Notes under the pieces: model-generated
Seen by the model: only the letters and a program-made list of their open reading frames with translations
Told to the model about the DNA's origin: nothing
The model's database searches: none
From: Malacoraja senta
Lineage: Eukaryota
Assembly: GCA_038087875.1 (NCBI GenBank)
Contig: CM075989.1
Coordinates: 8,310,001 to 8,370,000, forward strand
Reading direction: 5' to 3'
Length of the DNA stretch: 60,000 nt
Program-made: the position numbers and the translations under genes
Shown: positions 2,402 to 33,183 of the stretch, piece after piece
Layout of the letters: every line of letters starts with the position of its first letter
How positions within the stretch are numbered: position 1 is the stretch's first letter

Positions 2402-2766
2402 AGGTAGACACAAAATGCAGGAGTAACTCAGTGGGACAGGCAGCATCTCTGGAGAGAAGGGATGGATGACGTTTCAATAGACAATAGAAATAGACAATAG
2501 ACAATAGGTGCAGGAGTAGGCCATTCGGCCCTTCGAGCCAGCACCGCCATTCAATGTGATCATGGCTGATCATCCCCAATCAGTACCCCATTCCTGCCTT
2601 CTCCCCATATCCCCTGACTCCGCTATTTTTAAGAGCCCTATCTAGCTAGCTAGTTTCGGGTTGAGAGTTTCGGCTTCTTCAGAGATGTTGCCTATCCCGC
2701 TGAGCTACCCCAGTATTTTGTATCTACCTTCAATTTATACCAGCATCTGCAGTTCTTTCCTACACA
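2402..2766. mobile_element. Nested short repeats: Penelope-derived repeats with a HER1/CR1 3' end (2477-2650, minus) inserted
   Basis: (CAATAGA)n tail plus ggtgcaggagtaggccattcggccc HER1-type 3' UTR between two opposite-orientation gatgctgcc/gagttactcc repeats. Confidence 0.7.
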
Positions 2767-5700
2767 GCAAGGTCTCTCTATTTGATTGAATAATTTGGAA
2801 AAAAAATCCTGGGGGGTTTGGTATAATCAAAAAACACAAACATCAACTGATTGACTCCAAAGCTTGAATTCAGCTGAGAATGATATTGATGAGTTTCCAC
2901 TACATCAACCATGCTGCAACATCGATAACTCTGAAAGCAATGCCCACATCACAAAATAAATGGAGAAATCTGGAGAAGAGTGATTGAAATAGTTTTAAAA
3001 CGTTGCCATTACAGTTTTGATCGCATCAGATCTATAAACATTGTAATGGTAATATCATTTTCTTTGACCAATATAGCTATTACCAACCGTAATCTTTGTT
3101 CTGCACTAGTAATGAGGATCTCAGGTTTGGTAATGAGCACAGTTGCCGCCAATAGGCCACTGCTTTGTTATTTTGAGATTGATCAGAGTTTGCTTCAGTG
3201 TAAAAGCCAGCCATGAATCAGAGTGCTTAGACCCCGAGAGTCGTAGCCATTTTTCACAGCAAATGAAATTTGCAGTATTGTCATGCCATGAAATAGGAAA
3301 AAGAATCCCCTTGAATCCTATAATCTCCATTATCCAAGCATCTTGATCATTAATCTATTCGGTAATGCATTTCTATCGAATAGGGTCTTTATTTAGAGAC
3401 GTCCCTAGAAGCGACTGATCCATAGGTATTTTTCCTTTCAGAAAAGACCTGTTGAGGAGTGATATATTTCTTCTCACACTGACAAAGCACCAAACTGTTG
3501 GTTGTTGAAGTCACTGTAGCTGAATGGGGGGAGGAGGGGGGGGGAGAAAATAGTAACACAGGTATTCCTCCAATGTGGCAGTATTTCAAACTTTGGAATC
3601 TGTTTGTGGATTCAGCCATGCTGCACTGGATAATCTAGTTATCACGCTGACTTAAATTTTAAACCAAGGTTTTTTGTTTTACTGTTGATTATTGGACAGA
3701 AATCAAAAGAATGATCTGAGAGGGCCAGAATTTGACAGCCACCCACAGGCATATGCTGGGAGTAGGAGGAAAAGGAGGAATATGCTAAATAATGTTCTAT
3801 CTAAATCTGCTGCATGTAGTGAGGGAACATAATTAGTATCCTTTTAGTCCTAGCACTGATTGGAACAAATCTGCACTATGTTCTGTGCTCCCCCTCACAT
3901 TCCTTATATCACAACAATGCACTCGAAAAGTGCTTCACTGGCTCCAAAGAACTTTGGAAAGGCCTTGGGCAATGAGAGATATTATATAAATACAGCTTCC
4001 CTATTTTCTTCCGGTGGCAAACGTTGCTTGCCAGATAGCGATCAAAGAACTTACCTCAGAGGGTCAGATAGATAGGACACACACGCACACACGCACATGC
4101 TCACACACACACACACACACACACATCAATCCCCATGCATTATTAGTGAAATAGGTCGCAATTTTCTGCTTTATATAAACACTAGTGGCTCATATTTTCC
4201 ATTGCGCTCTGTTTGTTTCAGCTGTGTGATGTAAAGGGCCACCACACACACAAGACGTTACTGCCGCTGAATAGCCTGGAGGCTGGTGTGGGAACATACC
4301 ACAATGTGGGTGAGCTACTAATCAGCACTTATTATCCCTTGAATATTATCCTATTGTAACATAGAGAGAGATTGCAAAAGAGGTTGTTTAGACTTTTACC
4401 AGACATTCTGTTTACAAGAAGGATTCTTTTAATGTGAGTTGGAATGTAGATTATAGTATGTGCTAAGAGCCAGGAGGATTAATAACAGTTTACTCTTCAA
4501 GGGGCATGAATTTTAAGATCACAGTTGATGTTGTGGCTTGTTACTCTATAATTAAAAAACAAAGAGCAATAGATCAAAGAAGACTGCGGTTTTAAGGTAA
4601 ACAAATATTTCAGGCTAAGATTGTGTCTGCTGAATTGTGATGGACACCTAGATACAGACCTCAGTACAAGAGTCCGGAGAATTAAGGAGAAGACGCCATG
4701 AAAATATTTATGGATGCACTGTCCAATAATCTGGTAATCTATTTCCCTGGATTTGTTTAACATCATGCCACGGAAATGTAAATATATTGAAATAAATTGG
4801 CTCGACATTTTTTTCAACCAAGTTTTTTTGCACCACAGATCGTTTTGAATTCCTACTGATGGTCATCATCCTTGGATCTCTATGTTTACGTTTTATTATC
4901 CAGTAAAGACTCGGGTCCGAGAAAAAAGAGTTATGTGCGGGGTGGAGAAGGGAGTTCACTCCAGATTAATTCTGATTCCACTTCCAGCCAACTCCAGTTC
5001 AGCCCGTGGTATTCCTGGTCAAAGGGCACAGCACCAGCACCCGACTCTCCACAAGTACGTTCAGGCCAGAACCTGAGAAGTAAGAGGATACAAGTCACAT
5101 TATCTCCACTGAACTGTCTCTCGAACAGCCATTTCACCTCATGTAGCACCTCCCATCCACACAATGGTGCTCCGCAGTGGTGAAGGACACTTGTTTTGCA
5201 CCTGGAGCCCTGATGTCAATTAGGGCAGAAATATGTCAGAAGATGAGTTGAACGTCAGGATCTGTATATTTCAACTTTAGTAGGAGCAACGTTCACCAAA
5301 AATATTTAATTCCCATACTTGCCTGTATGAGTGCAACACCTACAATTCTCAAGAAGCACAACACAATAATCAGGACAAAGCAGCTCACTTGATCATCACT
5401 GCAACTAAGGCCCTGAACATTAATTCCCAACATCGTTGCTGCACAGCGGATGCAGTAAGTACTAGTGACAACTGCACTGTAGTTAGTCAACCAGGTTACT
5501 CCTTCTGCAAAGTAACGTGGGTAAGTCTGACAATGGTGCTGGCTGCCGAGCAAAGGATCTGCCTCAAATGTGTTTGATCATATCACCATCAAACACGTCA
5601 TTCAATATCACCACAGAATTAAAGCAAAAACTAAACTGATGGATGAAAGCAGCGGGTCAAGCAGCATCTGTGGTTGCAAAGGGGCGGTCGGTATTTCAGG

Positions 5701-29448: not shown

Positions 29449-29812
29449 GACTGATGATGGGTGATGCATCCTAGTTTGCAGGTGATGTGTGATCGGATGC
29501 AAGCCTGGGCGATGTCATATGGAGGACAGGCTGTTGCCCATGCAGCACGACCCCCCCTCTCCACGTCGCTGATTGATCCAAAGGAACAGCAGGGCCGTTA
29601 CAGTTTGGCACCAGCTCCGTCGCAGGAGCTGCCAGAGCGAGGTTGTAGACAACGACGAACTACCTTAGGGGCTCCGACTCCGTATTTTCTTGTGGTTTAC
29701 TCCTGTAACCTTTTCCATGACTGGATATGGCCACAAGGCAGTGGAGGTTTTAAATCAGAGTTTTCCCTCTCCTAGATGGACTGCCTTCCCAGGCTGACGA
29801 GCCCCATCTGCC
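29449..29812 (-). mobile_element. RTE-derived short non-autonomous element
   Basis: Minus strand GGCAGATGGGGCTCGTCAGCCTGGGAAGGCAGTCCATCTAGGAGAGGGAAAACTCTGATTTAAAACC resembles RTE 5' UTRs (recognised from memory); ends in (ATC)n-like tail. Confidence 0.6.
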
Positions 29813-29814
29813 AG

Positions 29815-30132
29815 AATGTGTACAGTGAAAAACTATTGTTGCATGCTAACCAGGCAGCCGAAAGACAATACATGATTACAATCGATCCATCCACAGTGTA
29901 CAGATACATGATAAAGGGAATAACATTCAGTGCAATATAAAGTCCAGTAAAGTCAGATCAACAATAGTCCGAAGTTCTCCATTGACGTAGATAGTAGCTC
30001 AGGATTGCTCTCTAGTTGTCGGTAGGATGGTTCAGTTGCCTGATACTGGCTAGGAAGAAATTGTCCCTGAATCGGGAGGTGTGTGTTTTCACACTATTGC
30101 ACCTTTTGCCTGACGGGAGAGGGGAGAAGGGG
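29815..30132 (-). mobile_element. Rex1/Babar-type 3' fragment, probably continuing at ~30860-30925
   Basis: Reverse complement of the family at 6900-7250. Confidence 0.7.
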
Positions 30133-30138
30133 TTTAAT

Positions 30139-30859
30139 TTGTACCCACTTTGGATTTCTTTGGCAGTTCAATAATCTAAGTGATGAAGATCTGCTTTCAA
30201 CAATTGAACAATTTCAGCAACAGTATCACAAAGAGGTCTCAAACGATCTTGGAGATGAGGTGCTATTTCTTAAACAAATATATTCAGTAAATTTAAATTG
30301 GATGGCAAGCCAAAGGAATTGCTGCAGGAGATTCTAACTTTGGGATTGGCTGGGTTATTTCCAAATATTATGATTGCATTGAGATTTTTAATAAATTTAC
30401 CAGCATCTGTGGCTCCAGGGGAAAGGAGATTCAACGTGTTGAAGCAGGTGAAGAATCACCATCATTCAACTATGGGACAAGAACGTTTGAATGGACTTGC
30501 CATGTTGAATGTTAATTGTGATATTGCACGGCAACTAAACTTTACATCTCTAATCAATGATAATCTGTAAAACGAAAACTTGTAATAAAAAAGTATTTGT
30601 AATAATCATAACTGTTATATATTTTGAAGAAAAAGTGTTAAATTTGTCGAAAATTGAAATGAGAGAAAAAACTAAAAATTCTAATATTTGAACTACCTAG
30701 ATATTAAATATTCCAATTACATAAGAATGGGCAAAAAAACAATAATTAGTCTTCTAAGTTGTGAATGTGAAAAAAATGCACTCATATTTGCTTGATCTTG
30801 GTTTGGGGGCCTCTAAAATTGAAATTGGCCTGGGCCTCAGTTCAACTACGAGGGCCTTG
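30139..30859 (+). mobile_element. hAT transposon 3' fragment (ZMYM1/Tip100-like dimerisation domain)
   Basis: FPNIMIALRFLINLPASVAPGERRFNVLKQVKN..STMGQERLNGLAML; GC-rich end ...gagggccttg resembling a TIR. Confidence 0.75.
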
Positions 30860-31289
30860 CTGAGGCAGCGTGAGATGTAAATGGAGTCAATGGAAGTGAG
30901 GTTGGTTTGTGTGATGGGCAAACTTGCCCATGGGTACTCTTGCCAGCCGAGGCACACGGGAAAAAGCATTTATGTTGCAACGCCATCCTGATGTGGAAAT
31001 ATATTGCGGGGCCATCATTATTGTTGAGCCTAAACTCTGGAACAAGCTGCCTGCGATCACCTTGGCCCAGTAGTTCCAGAAAATGGCTCACCGCCACCCT
31101 CTCAGGGACATTCATTCATTGGTAATAGAAAATTGGCCTTGCTGTGATGCCCCATCCCGAAAAATTAAAGATATTGAAAATTAATATCTCCACCAGAATA
31201 TGGCACTGGCATGGCTAGAGAAGTTTGGCAAGAAAAACAGCGTCTGAAAATTGGGAAGTTTTTAAGAATCACAAAGTGTGAGTCAGGAA

Positions 31290-31429
31290 CTTCTTCTTCT
31301 TCTTGCGTATGGCGTGCACAGCCTAAAGATGTAGATCAACTTGTTCTATTTGATCTTGCTTGTGCACGTCGGGTTGATTGCATTAGTCGAAACAGGGTGG
31401 ACCACGTGAAGGTTGCAATCTCCCACCCC
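31290..31429 (-). mobile_element. 140-bp ribozyme-headed non-autonomous retroposon
   Basis: 9-bp TSD agtcaggaa (31281-31289, 31430-31438); starts GGGG; ends ACGC(AAG)5. Confidence 0.85.
31376..31429 (-). ncRNA. Minimal HDV/CPEB3-like self-cleaving ribozyme (predicted)
   Basis: GGGGUGG-GA-GAUUGCA-ACC-UUCACGU-GGU-CCACCCU-GU-UUCGA-CUAA-UGCAAUC: P1 7 bp with G1.U, P2 7 bp, P3 3 bp, 7-nt L3, J4/2 CUAA. Confidence 0.85.
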
Positions 31430-32507
31430 AGTCAGGAATTGATAGATATAGAAAAGAGGAATGTAGCACAAAATATTTTTTTAAAGGGATTGTAAAAAAA
31501 CAATGTTGCAATGGGTAAAGACAAGATATCAATGTAAACAAATATGGTATCATAGAGGTGAGGGGATGTATTTATAAAGAGGATTGAGGAAACAGCAGAG
31601 CTATTAAATAAATATTTCCGTCTACCTTCATATTTGAGACTATATAGAATATTGCAAGCATGCAAGAGTCTTGGAATGTTCAGCAATTCAAATTAGGAAA
31701 GAAAATCGACTGGAAAAATAAATGGGATTAAAAGTAATCAATACCCCTGAATGTCTCTACCATGGGATTTTAAAAGAAGCAACTGCAAGGATGCGGTGGC
31801 GTTAATCCACCTGGATTCTATAATGGTCCCCGTGGATTAAAAATTAACAAACGTAACCTCAGTCTTCTTGAAAGAAAGAAGGAAGTAAACGGAAGAGTAT
31901 AGGTCTGTTATTCCAACATTATTACTAGAGAATTTGTAATAATATATTATTAAAAATGTGGTGAATATTCGATATGGAAATTCATAATTCGATTAGGCCG
32001 AGTCAACATGGCCACAGGGAAGGGAAGTCATGATCGACACATCTATTAGTATTTTTGAGAGTGCATTTGCAAGTTTGAGTAAAGAGAACCAGTGGATACA
32101 GTTTAGTTAGGTTTTTCAGAAGGTTCTTTATAAAGTGCACATGGGAGGTTGTCATGGCCTTGACAGAATGTTGTCTAGGACATGCTACATGCAGGCATGG
32201 ACTGTTTCAGTTGCGACTGAGTTATGAATCCTGAGATCTTAAAATAGAAGAGCAGAATCAGGCCACTGGGCCCATTGTGTCTGCTCCAAAATTCGATCAT
32301 GGAATGGAATTGAATATTGTGCAATCATCAGTGGACGTCTACTTCTGTCCTTATGATGGCGGTAAAAGTTAAAGATATAACAGCTCAATGTGGTTGGACT
32401 TGCAACACTGCACTGAGGAACTCCTGGGGTTCAGGTGATTAACCTTCAACAACCTCAACCACCTTAATTAGTTTACGGCACAACAGTCATTGGAGTTTTT
32501 CCCCTTT

Positions 32508-32714
32508 CTTCTTCTTGCGTTTGAAGCAGCAGAAGTCTGTAGCAGGGTGATGCCATCCGGTTCGACATCCGTAGGTGCCCGCCCTAAAAAGGGCGCATGC
32601 TCCAGGTTGGCTCCAAGCTGCGGAGCTGCTGCTACTGTCTCTGTTTGTTGTCGTTCGCCTGACTGAGGTGAGTTGACAGGGCTCACCACGGGGATGTCGA
32701 CAACATGAGCCCCG
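32508..32714 (-). mobile_element. 207-bp ribozyme-headed non-autonomous retroposon (second family)
   Basis: 10-bp TSD tttccccttt (32498-32507, 32715-32724); ends ACGC(AAG)3. Confidence 0.8.
32646..32713 (-). ncRNA. HDV-like ribozyme (predicted, slightly decayed)
   Basis: GGGGCUC-A-UGUUGUCG-ACA-UCCCCGU-GGU-GAGCCCU-GU-(18 nt P4 region)-CGAA-CGACAACA: perfect P1 with G1.U, 8-bp P2, one mismatch in P3. Confidence 0.78.
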
Positions 32715-33183
32715 TTTCCCCTTTGAAACTCCTTGACTCATTTTAACAAGGATGTTGATTAAATGCTGTCAACACTCAGCGTCGGCACTCCCACCTCACT
32801 GCGGAACTCTGCTTTTTGGACCATAAGGTGCAATGAGACATAGAGCTAAGTGGTTCTGACAAAGCCCACACTGGCCATTGGTGAGAAGATTGTTAAGGAG
32901 GAAGTACCACTTGATGACGATGTCAACAATGGCTTCCATCAAGTTGCTGATGATTGAGAGGAGACTGTGTAGCAATTAACTGAAATAGATGTCTGGCTTT
33001 TTGTGAGTTGGACATATCTGAGAAATGTTGCTCATTCTTGGGTAGATGCTACTGTAGTAACATTCTGAAACAGCCGAGCTAGAGTTGCAGCTTGTTCTCA
33101 AATGCAGATCTTGAGCAATATATCTGGAATATTTTACAGTTCCATACCTTTTCTGTTCTATGTTCAAGAGGCAGAAAGGGTTA

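What the first reader, a model, noticed from the sequence alone, without database searches (positions are those of the whole stretch)
31281..31438. 140-bp retroposon headed by a minimal 54-nt HDV/CPEB3-like self-cleaving ribozyme
Seen: the minus strand folds by eye into the HDV-type nested double pseudoknot. P1 is GGGGUGG/CCACCCU with the G1.U wobble, P2 GAUUGCA/UGCAAUC, P3 ACC/GGU, L3 UUCACGU and J4/2 CUAA with putative catalytic C at 31386; P4 is reduced to GU-UUCG-A. G1 (31429) directly abuts a 9-bp TSD. The rest of the element is a two-stem hairpin (CGUGCACA/UGUGCACG, AGAUCAA/UUGAUCU) followed by ACGC(AAG)5, and no Pol III A/B boxes are visible. Known: L3 UUCACGU and the GU after P1 match the mammalian CPEB3 ribozyme; HDV-like ribozymes define 5' ends of R2, RTE and L1Tc/Ingi LINEs; P4-less forms are known mostly from microbial and phage sequence. 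Inference: a promoter-less SINE-like element that cuts its own 5' end out of host read-through transcripts and is mobilised by a partner LINE, Ingi/Vingi- or RTE-like.
Basis: partly seen in the sequence, partly recalled or inferred. Interest (0 to 1): 0.9.

Follow-up and report, generated by a model that had tools for sequence, protein, structure and literature searches.

The report
Ribozyme-headed short retroposon family
A 140-base jumping element, present in thousands of copies, begins with a very small RNA fold of the hepatitis-delta self-cutting type, and a sister element and a full-size jumping gene in the same genome begin with a larger version of that fold.

Summary
Window 31290-31429 (minus strand) is a 140-nt retroposon (F1) flanked by the 9-bp duplication TTCCTGACT, with an ACGC(AAG)5 tail. 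Its first 54 nt fit an HDV-type nested double pseudoknot with almost no P4. The genome (1.94 Gb) holds 1,966 exact copies of the head core. In 31 of 37 copies a target-site duplication ends 0-1 nt before G1. Contigs of four other coded organisms also stop at G1.

F1 alone shows no covariation. The support comes from a second family, F2 (window 32508-32713, minus strand), found through its tail. Its 67-nt head has the same architecture plus a 5-bp P4, and scores E=4.9e-5 against an Rfam HDV-type model. Between F1 and F2, 7 of 14 P1/P2 pairs change on both sides and stay paired.

The F2-type head also lies 11-26 nt upstream of the ORF of a single-ORF LINE at 19 loci. No LINE carrying the F1 head or tail was found. 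The most abundant relative of that LINE ends in TCGC(AAG)n.

Self-cleavage, promoter-lessness and expression were not tested. The CPEB3 likeness got no tool support. This is a new variant of a known kind (ribozyme-capped non-autonomous non-LTR elements).

The parts
31290..31429 (-). F1 retroposon copy, 140 nt: ribozyme head, conserved linker, variable middle, conserved tail
   Evidence: 40 of 40 scored genomic matches are 95-100% identical, out of 1,791 first-look candidates; 1,966 exact matches of the head core.
31430..31438 (-). Upstream copy of the target-site duplication TTCCTGACT, directly abutting G1
31281..31289 (-). Downstream copy of the target-site duplication TTCCTGACT, directly after (AAG)5
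31376..31429 (-). Putative minimal (P4-less) HDV-like ribozyme, 54 nt. P1 31423-31429 with 31394-31400. P2 31414-31420 with 31376-31382. P3 31411-31413 with 31401-31403. L3 31404-31410. Linker 31387-31393.
   Evidence: RF02682 aligned end to end, 17.5 bits; strict descriptor; 7 compensatory pairs against F2.
31383..31386 (-). J4/2 CUAA, with the putative catalytic C at 31386. Other subfamilies read CGAA or CAAA.
   Evidence: In alignment A2 this C shares a column with the C of CGAA in F2.
31300..31375 (-). 3' domain: conserved AACCCGACGUGCACAA, variable middle, conserved CAACUUUAGGCUGUGCACGCCAUACGC. The outer 8-bp stem pairs 31362-31369 with 31312-31319.
31290..31308 (-). Terminal ACGC(AAG)5, the presumed priming and recognition end
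   Evidence: The same type of terminus, TCGC(AAG)n, occurs in 16 of 16 fetched 3' ends of LINE X and in L055.
32508..32713 (-). F2 retroposon copy, 206 nt, second ribozyme-headed family, tail AAACGC(AAG)3. Flanking duplication AAAGGGGAAAC (32714-32724) against AAAGGGGAAAAAC (32495-32507).
   Evidence: 840 first-look candidates; 38 other genomic copies begin at query 80-90.
32647..32713 (-). F2 head, 67 nt, HDV-like fold with a 5-bp P4. This copy carries a C19-to-A change that breaks one P3 pair.
   Evidence: (on copy L122: RF02682 32.8 bits, E=4.9e-5; RF00094 25.8 bits, E=0.024).

Best explanation
F1 is a non-autonomous non-LTR retroposon. Its first 54 nt form a minimal, P4-less HDV-like self-cleaving ribozyme.

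Proposed cycle:
1. A copy is transcribed as part of a longer RNA from an outside promoter (inferred).
2. The head folds into the P1/P2/P3 double pseudoknot and cuts immediately 5' of G1, using the J4/2 cytosine (window 31386). This leaves an RNA that starts exactly at G1 (inferred from the fold and from the 5' ends of the copies).
3. The conserved 3' part and the ACGC(AAG)n terminus are used in trans by the reverse transcriptase of a compact single-ORF LINE lineage of the same genome, for target-primed reverse transcription. This makes 8-13-bp target-site duplications (duplications shown; enzyme inferred).
4. Because the whole head is copied, each full-length daughter can cut itself out again.

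Shown here: the anatomy, the copy number, the fixed 5' end, the compensatory changes against a second family, and the presence of the F2-type head at the 5' end of an autonomous LINE.

Not shown here: cleavage, transcription, and which LINE moves F1.
For: 1. Retroposon with a fixed 5' end.
- 1,966 exact matches of 33 fixed head positions, with 0 for the reversed control pattern.
- 2,322 exact matches of the 33-nt tail. Heads and tails occur about 1:1, so the element moves as a full-length unit.
- In 31 of 37 distinct copies a duplication of at least 6 nt ends 0-1 nt before the first base. In the other 6 none was found.
- In contigs of four other coded organisms, cover is confined to 31290-31430. 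Unrelated loose ends start at 31429 or 31430: 232+252 in X22, 42+42 in X7, 15 at 31430 in X3 and 5 at 31430 in X1.

2. Fit to the HDV type.
- All helices and junctions are present.
- RF02682 aligns end to end from G1 to the last P2' base.
- The strict descriptor hits only F1 heads in 683 kb of scanned strand, and none in shuffles.

3. Variation fits the fold.
- In the four other organisms only positions 32 and 45 of the 54 head positions carry an alternative in at least 10% of depth. Eight positions and two indel sites do so in the 3' domain.
- Position 32 is A or G and both pair with U5: 26 U-A rows and 17 U.G rows.
- Positions 8 and 45 lie in unpaired junctions.

4. Covariation with F2.
- F2 was found through its tail, not its fold.
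- Its head has different P1 and P2 sequences that are again complementary.
- On 20 F1 and 18 F2 heads, 7 pairs change on both sides (3 in P1, 4 in P2).
- 97.7% of cells pair, against 83.8% in shuffles (0 of 500 reach the observed value) and 30-42% when the 3' partners are slid.
- The F2 head scores E=4.9e-5 against RF02682 and E=0.024 against RF00094.

5. Link to an autonomous element. At 19 loci an exact 35-nt F2-head match lies on the same strand, 11-26 nt upstream of the inferred start of a LINE ORF. Open frames reach 954-1,018 aa without stops.

6. No other head type. There is no tRNA and no Rfam family at gathering score.
Against: - No cleavage assay was possible and no RNA reads were available. 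All runs found were contigs and none is on record as RNA.
- Within F1 there is no compensatory change. 0 pairs change on both sides, and the 96.8% of paired cells is no better than shuffles.
- The covariation rests on a single contrast between two families. It counts as one comparison, not many events.
- The Rfam score of the F1 head is far below gathering (17.5 against 44 bits). F2 is also below it (32.8 bits).
- The 5-nt linker that replaces P4 in F1 is untested.
- No LINE with the F1 head or tail was found. The one apparent case, L034, is a CR1-like LINE inserted into an older F1 copy.
- The 3' end of the ribozyme-bearing LINE was not read. The F2 3' segment has no exact match in those contigs.
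- Up to 7 F1 copies have the segment between the P2 arms inverted, which destroys the fold, yet the three that were read still end at G1.
Confidence: 0.72

Rival explanations
1. The head is a true descendant of an HDV-like ribozyme, but in F1 the loss of P4 has inactivated cutting. The 5' end at G1 is then set by transcription initiation (an internal or upstream-acting Pol II or Pol III promoter in the head, as for Pr77 of L1Tc). Alternatively the head is kept for another role, such as protecting the 5' end or binding the LINE protein.
For: - The F1 head scores only 17.5 bits.
- There is no covariation inside F1.
- A fixed 5' end is also what a defined start site would give.
- In L1Tc/NARTc the same 77 nt are reported to be both promoter and ribozyme (abstract of PMC3383444, from the listing).
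- Rare F1 copies with an inverted core still end at G1.
Against: - All pairs and the junction C are kept across subfamilies and in four other organisms, while the middle of the element drifts.
- The only common polymorphism in a helix preserves pairing.
- P4-less HDV-like ribozymes are described as a natural class (PMC10879173, passage read).
- No A or B box and no tRNA-like head was found (the box consensus is recalled).
Confidence: 0.18
2. F1 is a bipartite internal-deletion derivative of a LINE that carries the same P4-less head and the same tail. That parent is rare, extinct or too diverged to be found with the searches run here. The ribozyme would then not be an independently recruited SINE head.
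For: - F2 shows this relation for its head, at 19 loci.
- Bipartite non-autonomous LINEs are known from RTE, Ingi, Vingi and R2, and usually keep the 5' end of the parent (PMC5786205, section 23 read).
Against: - Heads and tails of F1 occur about 1:1 (1,966 against 2,322). A LINE parent should leave many tail-only, 5'-truncated copies.
- Exclusion patterns found no recurrent non-F1 continuation at positions 54/55, 70/71 side, 96-98 or 108-110.
- Among the first 100 listed heads and the first 100 listed tails, the only long-range head-tail pair is the nested insertion L034.
Confidence: 0.3
3. The fold is a chance resemblance in an ordinary SINE.
For: A loose descriptor gives hundreds of hits in 341 kb. 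The Rfam score is below gathering.
Against: - The strict descriptor hits only F1 heads and gives 0 in shuffles.
- The fold starts exactly at the first base of the element.
- An independently found family has the same architecture with 7 compensated pairs and a significant Rfam match.
Confidence: 0.03

Closest known systems
Bipartite non-autonomous LINEs with ribozyme-bearing parents: RIME/NARTc of Ingi/L1Tc, R2 SIDEs, RTE and Vingi derivatives
   Same: Short ORF-less elements that keep the extreme 5' end of a LINE and a LINE-type 3' end. In L1Tc/NARTc and R2 SIDEs the 5' end is an HDV-like ribozyme that sets the RNA 5' end. Sources: PMC5786205 section 23 (read); PMC3185411, PMC3383444 and PMC3414825 (abstracts from the listing).
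   Different: F1 is only 140 nt. Its head lacks P4, and no parent LINE sharing its ends was found. The related LINE lineage here is not rDNA-specific (dispersed copies with variable duplications) and was not assigned to a clade. [quoted passage not shown]
Minimal (P4-less) HDV-like ribozymes of metagenomes and theta ribozymes of gut phages
   Same: Nested double pseudoknot with the P4 domain missing (PMC10879173, passage read).
   Different: Those are microbial or phage sequences, next to tRNA genes in phages. F1 is the 5' cap of a eukaryotic retroposon with thousands of copies, and it has a P4-bearing sister (F2) in the same genome.
HDV ribozyme and drz-Fpra-type HDV-like ribozymes (Rfam RF00094, RF02682)
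   Same: P1 starting with G.U, a 3-bp P3, a 7-nt pyrimidine-rich L3 ending in CGU, CNAA in J4/2, and P2 closing the fold. Both models align end to end to the F2 head, and RF02682 does so to the F1 head.
   Different: Scores are below the gathering thresholds. J1/4 is GU, so only one G is available for P1.1. P4 is 5 bp in F2 and absent in F1.
Mammalian CPEB3 ribozyme
   Same: By recall only: the same L3 (UUCACGU), GU after P1, and a weak P1.1.
   Different: The Rfam CPEB3 model gives no match at E<=10. CPEB3 is a single-copy intronic ribozyme with a full P4. A text search for a recalled CPEB3 string found no paper to check it against.
Ribozyme-bearing SINE-like elements of schistosomes (hammerhead Sm-alpha; twister variants with Perere-3/SR3)
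   Same: A short high-copy non-autonomous retroposon that carries a self-cleaving ribozyme used in non-LTR retrotransposition (PMC8501958, abstract from the listing; Sm-alpha recalled).
   Different: A different ribozyme class. Sm-alpha also has a tRNA-like Pol III head (recalled).

Membership tests
HDV-like self-cleaving ribozymes | Nested double pseudoknot: P1 (about 7 bp), P2 and P3 (3 bp) in the order P1-J1/2-P2-P3-L3-P3'-P1'-J1/4-(P4)-J4/2-P2' | tested here: met
   Read directly. The strict descriptor hits the F1 heads. Pairing is 96.8% of cells in 57 F1 heads and 97.7% in F1 plus F2.
HDV-like self-cleaving ribozymes | Base pairs supported by compensatory change | tested here: met
   None within F1 (0 pairs). 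Between F1 and F2, 7 pairs change on both sides (3 in P1, 4 in P2). Slid controls give 0-1. This is one contrast between two families.
HDV-like self-cleaving ribozymes | Cleavage site immediately 5' of G1, at a G.U pair closing P1 | tested here: inconclusive
   G1.U36 is present in 41 of 43 distinct F1 rows and in 30 of 30 rows of A2. Element copies begin at G1. Cleavage itself was not observed.
HDV-like self-cleaving ribozymes | Catalytic cytosine in J4/2 (C-N-A-A before P2') | tested here: met
   C44 is nearly invariant (at least 90% of 57 heads). It shares an alignment column with the C of CGAA in F2. Its role in catalysis was not tested.
HDV-like self-cleaving ribozymes | P1.1 between L3 and J1/4 | tested here: inconclusive
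   One C22-G37 pair is possible and is kept in 42 of 43 rows and 30 of 30 rows. It never varies, so it says nothing either way.
HDV-like self-cleaving ribozymes | Match to curated covariance models at gathering score | tested here: not met
   F1: 17.5 bits against 44. F2: 32.8 against 44 and 25.8 against 50, although E=4.9e-5 and 0.024 in the local search. In the whole-genome search only 62 of 82,112 candidates were scored, and the best reached 36.7 bits.
HDV-like self-cleaving ribozymes | Mg2+-dependent self-scission giving 5'-OH and 2',3'-cyclic phosphate | not testable with these tools
   Needs a bench assay.
Classical SINE (Pol III, tRNA/7SL/5S head) | Head derived from a small RNA gene with internal A and B boxes | tested here: not met
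   ARAGORN finds no tRNA in 31200-31520. No tRNA, 7SL or 5S match appears even at E<=10. The box consensus is recalled; only a partial TTCGA match was seen by eye.
Bipartite non-autonomous LINE | 5' end identical to the 5' end of an autonomous LINE | tested here: inconclusive
   Met for F2: 19 loci have an exact 35-nt head match 11-26 nt upstream of a LINE ORF. Not met for F1 with the searches run (against 103). The 5' UTR of LINE X could not be read.
Bipartite non-autonomous LINE | 3' end shared with the LINE | tested here: inconclusive
   Only the terminus is shared: F1 ACGC(AAG)n, F2 ACGC(AAG)n, LINE X TCGC(AAG)n in 16 of 16 ends. No LINE shares the last 22-33 nt of F1. The 3' end of the ribozyme-bearing LINE was not read.
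CPEB3 ribozyme family (RF00622) | Match to the family model | tested here: not met
   No match at E<=10 in searches of 221 nt and 62 nt.

The most novel reading that the evidence does not exclude
F1 is not a deletion derivative of any LINE. It would be a true SINE of a new head class: a stand-alone, P4-less HDV-like ribozyme that replaces the Pol III promoter head and was joined to a LINE-compatible tail. The element would then live entirely on host read-through transcription. Its spread to thousands of copies in at least five related organisms would make it the first abundant natural P4-less HDV-like ribozyme with a defined eukaryotic role. Such retroposon heads would also be a plausible source for solitary exapted ribozymes of the CPEB3 kind.
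Probability: 0.25. Interest if true: 0.8.

Novelty: new variant of a known kind. Interest (0 to 1): 0.58.

Why it matters
HDV-like ribozymes are known to cap several LINE clades and a few of their deletion derivatives. This case adds three things.

1. It offers a natural pair in one genome: a head with P4 (F2 and its LINE) and a head without P4 (F1). The pair differs by seven compensated base pairs. That is a ready-made test of how little of the fold is needed in vivo.

2. It gives a eukaryotic, high-copy setting for the minimal P4-less class. One paper (PMC10879173, passage read) says that when the class was first found in metagenomes, its origin and function remained to be determined.

3. 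It shows a very short retroposon that appears to need no promoter of its own. That bears on how SINE-like elements can arise without a small-RNA head.

If the LINE lineage proves to be outside the six clades listed in PMC5786205 as ribozyme-bearing, that list grows by one.

Tried and rejected
1. L034 as the partner LINE. It looked like an F1 head, then ORFs, then an F1 tail. This was rejected. The abundant CR1-like LINE matches L034 only up to its own terminus ...GTTATATGGTTATATGGTTA and from ATCA in ORF1 onward. L034 is therefore a 5'-truncated CR1-like LINE inserted into an older F1 copy. Full-length copies of that LINE have 109-bp repeats in the 5' UTR and no ribozyme.

2. Exclusion-pattern searches for a LINE sharing the F1 head or tail.
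- Of the 118 hits, 20 were fetched. 19 are F1 subfamilies and 1 (L090) is a truncated F1 beside another repeat.
- Of the 19 hits, 16 were fetched. They are F1 copies with deletions, nested insertions or inversions.

3. A search for a third family sharing the P3-L3 core. All 70 hits are mutated F1 or F2. Only the A/T option at one position was tried.

4. A whole-genome scan with RF02682. Only 62 of 82,112 candidates were scored, giving 5 matches, and all 5 are F2 copies.

5. Exclusion patterns for a LINE continuing from the F2 head or the F2 3' part gave 3 and 11 scattered hits. The first was blind by design, because the LINE seems to share the bases after the head.

6. RNA evidence. No RNA holder is listed. 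The four runs laid are contigs, so they show no starts, ends or expression.

7. Upstream extensions in F2. Six of 20 F2 copies seemed to extend 1-8 nt upstream of G1. In the window copy this stretch is the target-site duplication, so it was dropped as a sign of uncleaved RNA.

8. Earlier findings of this scan: nothing was held.

9. Clade of the LINE. Pfam gives only APE and RT domains, the Atlas search (run on the CR1-like LINE ORF2 from L034, not on LINE X or Y) gives no clade, and the Vingi paper and Ruminski et al. 2011 are not held.

Full report
**What is at the site.**
On the minus strand, window 31429 to 31290 is a 140-nt element. It is flanked on both sides by TTCCTGACT (31438-31430 and 31289-31281) and ends in ACGC(AAG)5. 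With element position n = window 31430-n, the first 54 nt read as follows.
- P1: GGGGUGG (1-7) pairs with CCACCCU (30-36), including G1.U36.
- J1/2: GA.
- P2: GAUUGCA (10-16) pairs with UGCAAUC (48-54).
- P3: ACC (17-19) pairs with GGU (27-29).
- L3: UUCACGU.
- After P1': GU, then UUCGA.
- J4/2: CUAA, with C44 at 31386.

**Is it more than chance?**
No Rfam family reaches its gathering score anywhere in the window. With permissive thresholds, the best of 4,227 models on this strand is the HDV-type model RF02682. It aligns over its whole length, exactly from G1 to the last base of P2'. The score is only 17.5 bits against a gathering score of 44 (E=0.36 in 221 nt, E=0.1 in 62 nt). The CPEB3 model gives nothing at E<=10.

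A loose home-made descriptor is not selective: it gave 493 hits in 341.5 kb. A strict descriptor gave 23 hits on both strands of the same 341,529 nt. All 23 are heads of this element family, and three block shuffles gave 0 each. The MFE fold of the whole element contains P1 and P3 but is not unusually stable (z = -0.42).

**It is a retroposon with a fixed 5' end.**
The window lies in a 1.94-Gb eukaryotic assembly. The element gave 1,791 first-look candidates, and all 40 scored are 95-100% identical. A pattern of 33 fixed head positions has 1,966 exact matches against 0 for the reversed control. The 33-nt tail has 2,322 exact matches. Heads and tails are therefore about 1:1, and the element moves as a full-length unit.

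Among 37 distinct copies taken from L001-L030 and L084-L103, 31 have a duplication of at least 6 nt (mostly 9-13 nt) that ends 0-1 nt before the first base. Duplicated loci and copies without a recognisable head and tail were dropped. In the other 6 copies no duplication was found.

Contigs of four other coded organisms hold hundreds to thousands of copies. Their cover is confined to 31290-31430. Unrelated loose ends begin at 31429 or 31430: 232+252 in X22, 42+42 in X7, 15 at 31430 in X3 and 5 at 31430 in X1. These are contigs, so they say nothing about RNA.

ARAGORN finds no tRNA-like head.

**Variation inside the family (F1).**
An alignment of 57 heads (43 distinct) has 96.8% of cells paired, but no pair changes on both sides and the figure is no better than shuffles. 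F1 alone therefore gives no covariation.

The recurrent variants are these:
- position 8, G or A, in J1/2;
- position 32, A or G; both pair with U5 (26 U-A rows against 17 U.G rows);
- position 45, U, G or A, the second base of J4/2;
- CpG decay at positions 24/25 and 41/42.

In the four other organisms only positions 32 and 45 of the head carry an alternative in at least 10% of depth. The 3' domain has eight such positions and two indel sites.

Across subfamilies three parts are constant: the head, positions 55-70, and positions 99-130 including the outer 8-bp stem. Positions 71-98 vary and are partly deleted in some subfamilies.

**A false lead.**
One locus (L033/L034) shows an F1 head, then a LINE with an esterase-type ORF1 remnant and an APE+RT ORF2, then an F1 tail, inside one target-site duplication. 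I first took this LINE for the parent.

It is not the parent. Thousands of copies of that CR1-like LINE match L034 only from ATCA in ORF1 to their own terminus ...GTTATATGGTTATATGGTTA. L034 is a 5'-truncated LINE inserted into an older F1 copy at ATCA. Full-length copies of that LINE have 109-bp repeats in the 5' UTR and no ribozyme.

**A second family supplies the covariation.**
I looked in the fetched DNA for other sequences ending in (AAG)n. This turned up a second element 1.1 kb away in the window, on the minus strand at 32713 to 32508, ending in AAACGC(AAG)3. It gave 840 first-look candidates. The 38 other genomic copies among the 40 scored hits begin at query positions 80-90, mostly at 88.

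The consensus of its first 67 nt comes from 20 fetched copies plus the window copy:
- P1: GGGGCUC pairs with GAGCCCU.
- J1/2: AU.
- P2: GUUGUCG pairs with CGACAAC.
- P3: ACC pairs with GGU.
- L3: UCCCCGU.
- J1/4: GU.
- P4: CUGAC pairs with GUCAG, closed by a CUCA loop.
- J4/2: CGAA.

On copy L122, RF02682 scores 32.8 bits (E=4.9e-5) and the HDV model RF00094 scores 25.8 bits (E=0.024). Both align end to end from G1 to the end of P2'. Both scores are still below gathering.

I aligned 20 F1 heads with 18 F2 heads; 2 of the 20 fetched F2 copies were left out, including L126 with an insertion. On this alignment 7 pairs change on both sides, 3 in P1 and 4 in P2. 97.7% of cells pair, against 83.8% in shuffles (0 of 500 reach the observed value) and 30-42% when the 3' partners are slid.

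The two consensus heads share 32 of 54 alignable positions. F1 looks like F2 with the P4 hairpin replaced by UUCGA.

One caveat applies. This is a single contrast between two families, not many independent events. However, F2 was found through its tail, not through its fold.

**Link to autonomous LINEs.**
A third (AAG)n end, in L055, closes an ORF with a C-terminal cysteine/histidine motif. This LINE, called LINE X here, gave 51,608 first-look candidates. In 16 of 16 fetched 3' ends, and in L055, it terminates in ...TTCATTCGC(AAG)n. F1 ends in CATACGC(AAG)n and F2 in TTCAAACGC(AAG)n. The CR1-like LINE ends quite differently.

Relatives of LINE X in the protein collections are single ORFs of about 1,000 aa with APE and RT domains, on contigs of 3.2-3.6 kb. 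P0163 is 69% identical to the LINE X C-terminus.

I searched the genome with P0163 and with its first 185 residues, and compared those places with the 105 exact matches of a 35-nt F2-head pattern, of which 100 are listed. At 19 loci the head lies on the same strand, with its last base 11-26 nt upstream of the inferred ORF start. The loci are on contigs C645, C1321, C1351, C1534, C1656, C1885, C1936, C2026, C2243, C2386, C2394, C2485, C2785, C3582, C3588, C3632, C4421, C4705 and C4845.

These copies are 47-54% identical to P0163, and some have open frames of 954-1,018 aa without stops. An autonomous LINE of this lineage therefore starts with the F2-type ribozyme, and the F2 head is that LINE's 5' end.

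Some things remain open:
- The 3' end of this LINE was not read. The F2 3' segment (69 exact matches) has none in those contigs.
- LINE X-type N-termini (58-66% identical to P0163) have no exact F2 head beside them.

**No parent for F1.**
Exclusion patterns looked for the F1 head followed by non-F1 sequence and for F1 3' parts preceded by non-F1 sequence. They found only F1 subfamilies, copies with deletions or nested insertions, one truncated copy, and rare inversions.

Together with the 1:1 ratio of heads to tails, this argues that no abundant LINE shares F1's ends in this genome. A rare or diverged parent is not excluded.

**How it most likely works.**
By analogy with R2, L1Tc/NARTc and RTE, the head cuts the element out of a longer transcript just 5' of G1. 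These systems were seen as abstracts in the listing, and in section 23 of PMC5786205 read. The 3' end with its CGC(AAG)n terminus is then used by the reverse transcriptase of the LINE X / ribozyme-bearing LINE lineage. Each full-length copy carries the head again.

The steps that are shown and those that are inferred are set out under Best explanation. That P4 is dispensable rests on two things: established knowledge of the HDV ribozyme (recalled), and the description of natural P4-less HDV-like ribozymes in PMC10879173 (passage read).

**Comparison with what is known, and novelty.**
PMC5786205 (section 23 read) states that bipartite ORF-less non-autonomous LINEs are reported from RTE, Ingi, Vingi and R2. 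[quoted passage not shown] The present elements belong to that kind.

What differs:
- the P4-less head of F1 in a eukaryotic retroposon with thousands of copies;
- the P4-bearing and P4-less heads side by side in one genome;
- the missing parent of F1;
- a LINE lineage that I could not assign to a clade.

Pfam shows only APE and RT domains. [quoted passage not shown] That fits, but it is not a test.

On prior publication: full-text searches for 'HDV-like ribozyme' with SINE, for HDV-like with CR1 and non-LTR, for 'CPEB3 ribozyme' with retrotransposon and origin, and for strings of the element's own sequence found no description of this family. Repbase and Dfam could not be consulted. Ruminski et al. 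2011 and Kojima et al. 2011 are not held and may bear on the claim.

**Verdict.**
It is unproven for cleavage, promoter-lessness and the partner's clade.
- The CPEB3 likeness and the inner hairpin stem are not supported.
- The finding is a new variant of a known kind.

Noticed in passing
window 32508-32713 (minus strand): A second ribozyme-headed retroposon family (F2), 206 nt in this copy, with a full HDV-like head including P4. It lies 1.1 kb from the finding, on the same strand.
   Followed up: yes
window about 29790-32929, equal to G000:C13:8339790-8342929, against G000:C13:8488007-8491146 (L002 and L001): The 3.1 kb around the finding, including both retroposons and their flanks, recurs 100% identical 148 kb away on the same contig. 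This is a recent segmental duplication or an assembly duplicate.
   Followed up: partly
L034 1046-4441 (G000:C1:20849545-20852940): A 5'-truncated CR1-like LINE (end of an esterase-type ORF1, then APE+RT ORF2) is inserted into an older F1 copy at ATCA, between the ribozyme and the 3' domain. It mimics a ribozyme-headed LINE.
   Followed up: yes
L065-L071 (for example L065 about 2530-3830): A very abundant CR1-like LINE (18,223 first-look candidates for its ORF1 end). It has a GDSL/SGNH esterase ORF1, arrays of about 109-bp tandem repeats in the 5' UTR, and a 3' terminus of 8-mer repeats (GGTTATAT)n.
   Followed up: partly
L107, L109, L116 (G000:C1:302236137-302236466, C6:2875566-2875895, C2362:26839-27168): F1 copies in which the segment between the two P2 arms (positions 17-47) is inverted relative to the rest. 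This destroys the fold, yet these copies still end at G1 at distinct sites. At most 7 such copies exist in the genome. The origin is unexplained; it may be template switching at the 7-nt inverted repeat.
   Followed up: partly
L055 833-1175 and G000:C1119:14195-17377: LINE X is a single-ORF APE+RT LINE with a C-terminal Cys/His motif, a very short 3' UTR and a TCGC(AAG)n terminus. It gave the largest candidate count seen here (51,608 first-look). C1119 holds two near-full-length copies.
   Followed up: partly
G000 contigs C51, C385, C1651 (place lists): Many hits to the LINE N-terminal region (residues 50-185, about 60% identity) share the same in-frame TAA. They are clustered in both orientations on a few contigs, which suggests a locally amplified array of a broken LINE fragment.
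   Followed up: no
L004 about 1460-1500 (flank of an F1 copy): This F1 copy sits inside another repeat, whose flanking sequence I took by eye, untested, for a tRNA-related SINE. Other repeats recur in the flanks, for example the 4,157-candidate repeat beside L090.
   Followed up: no
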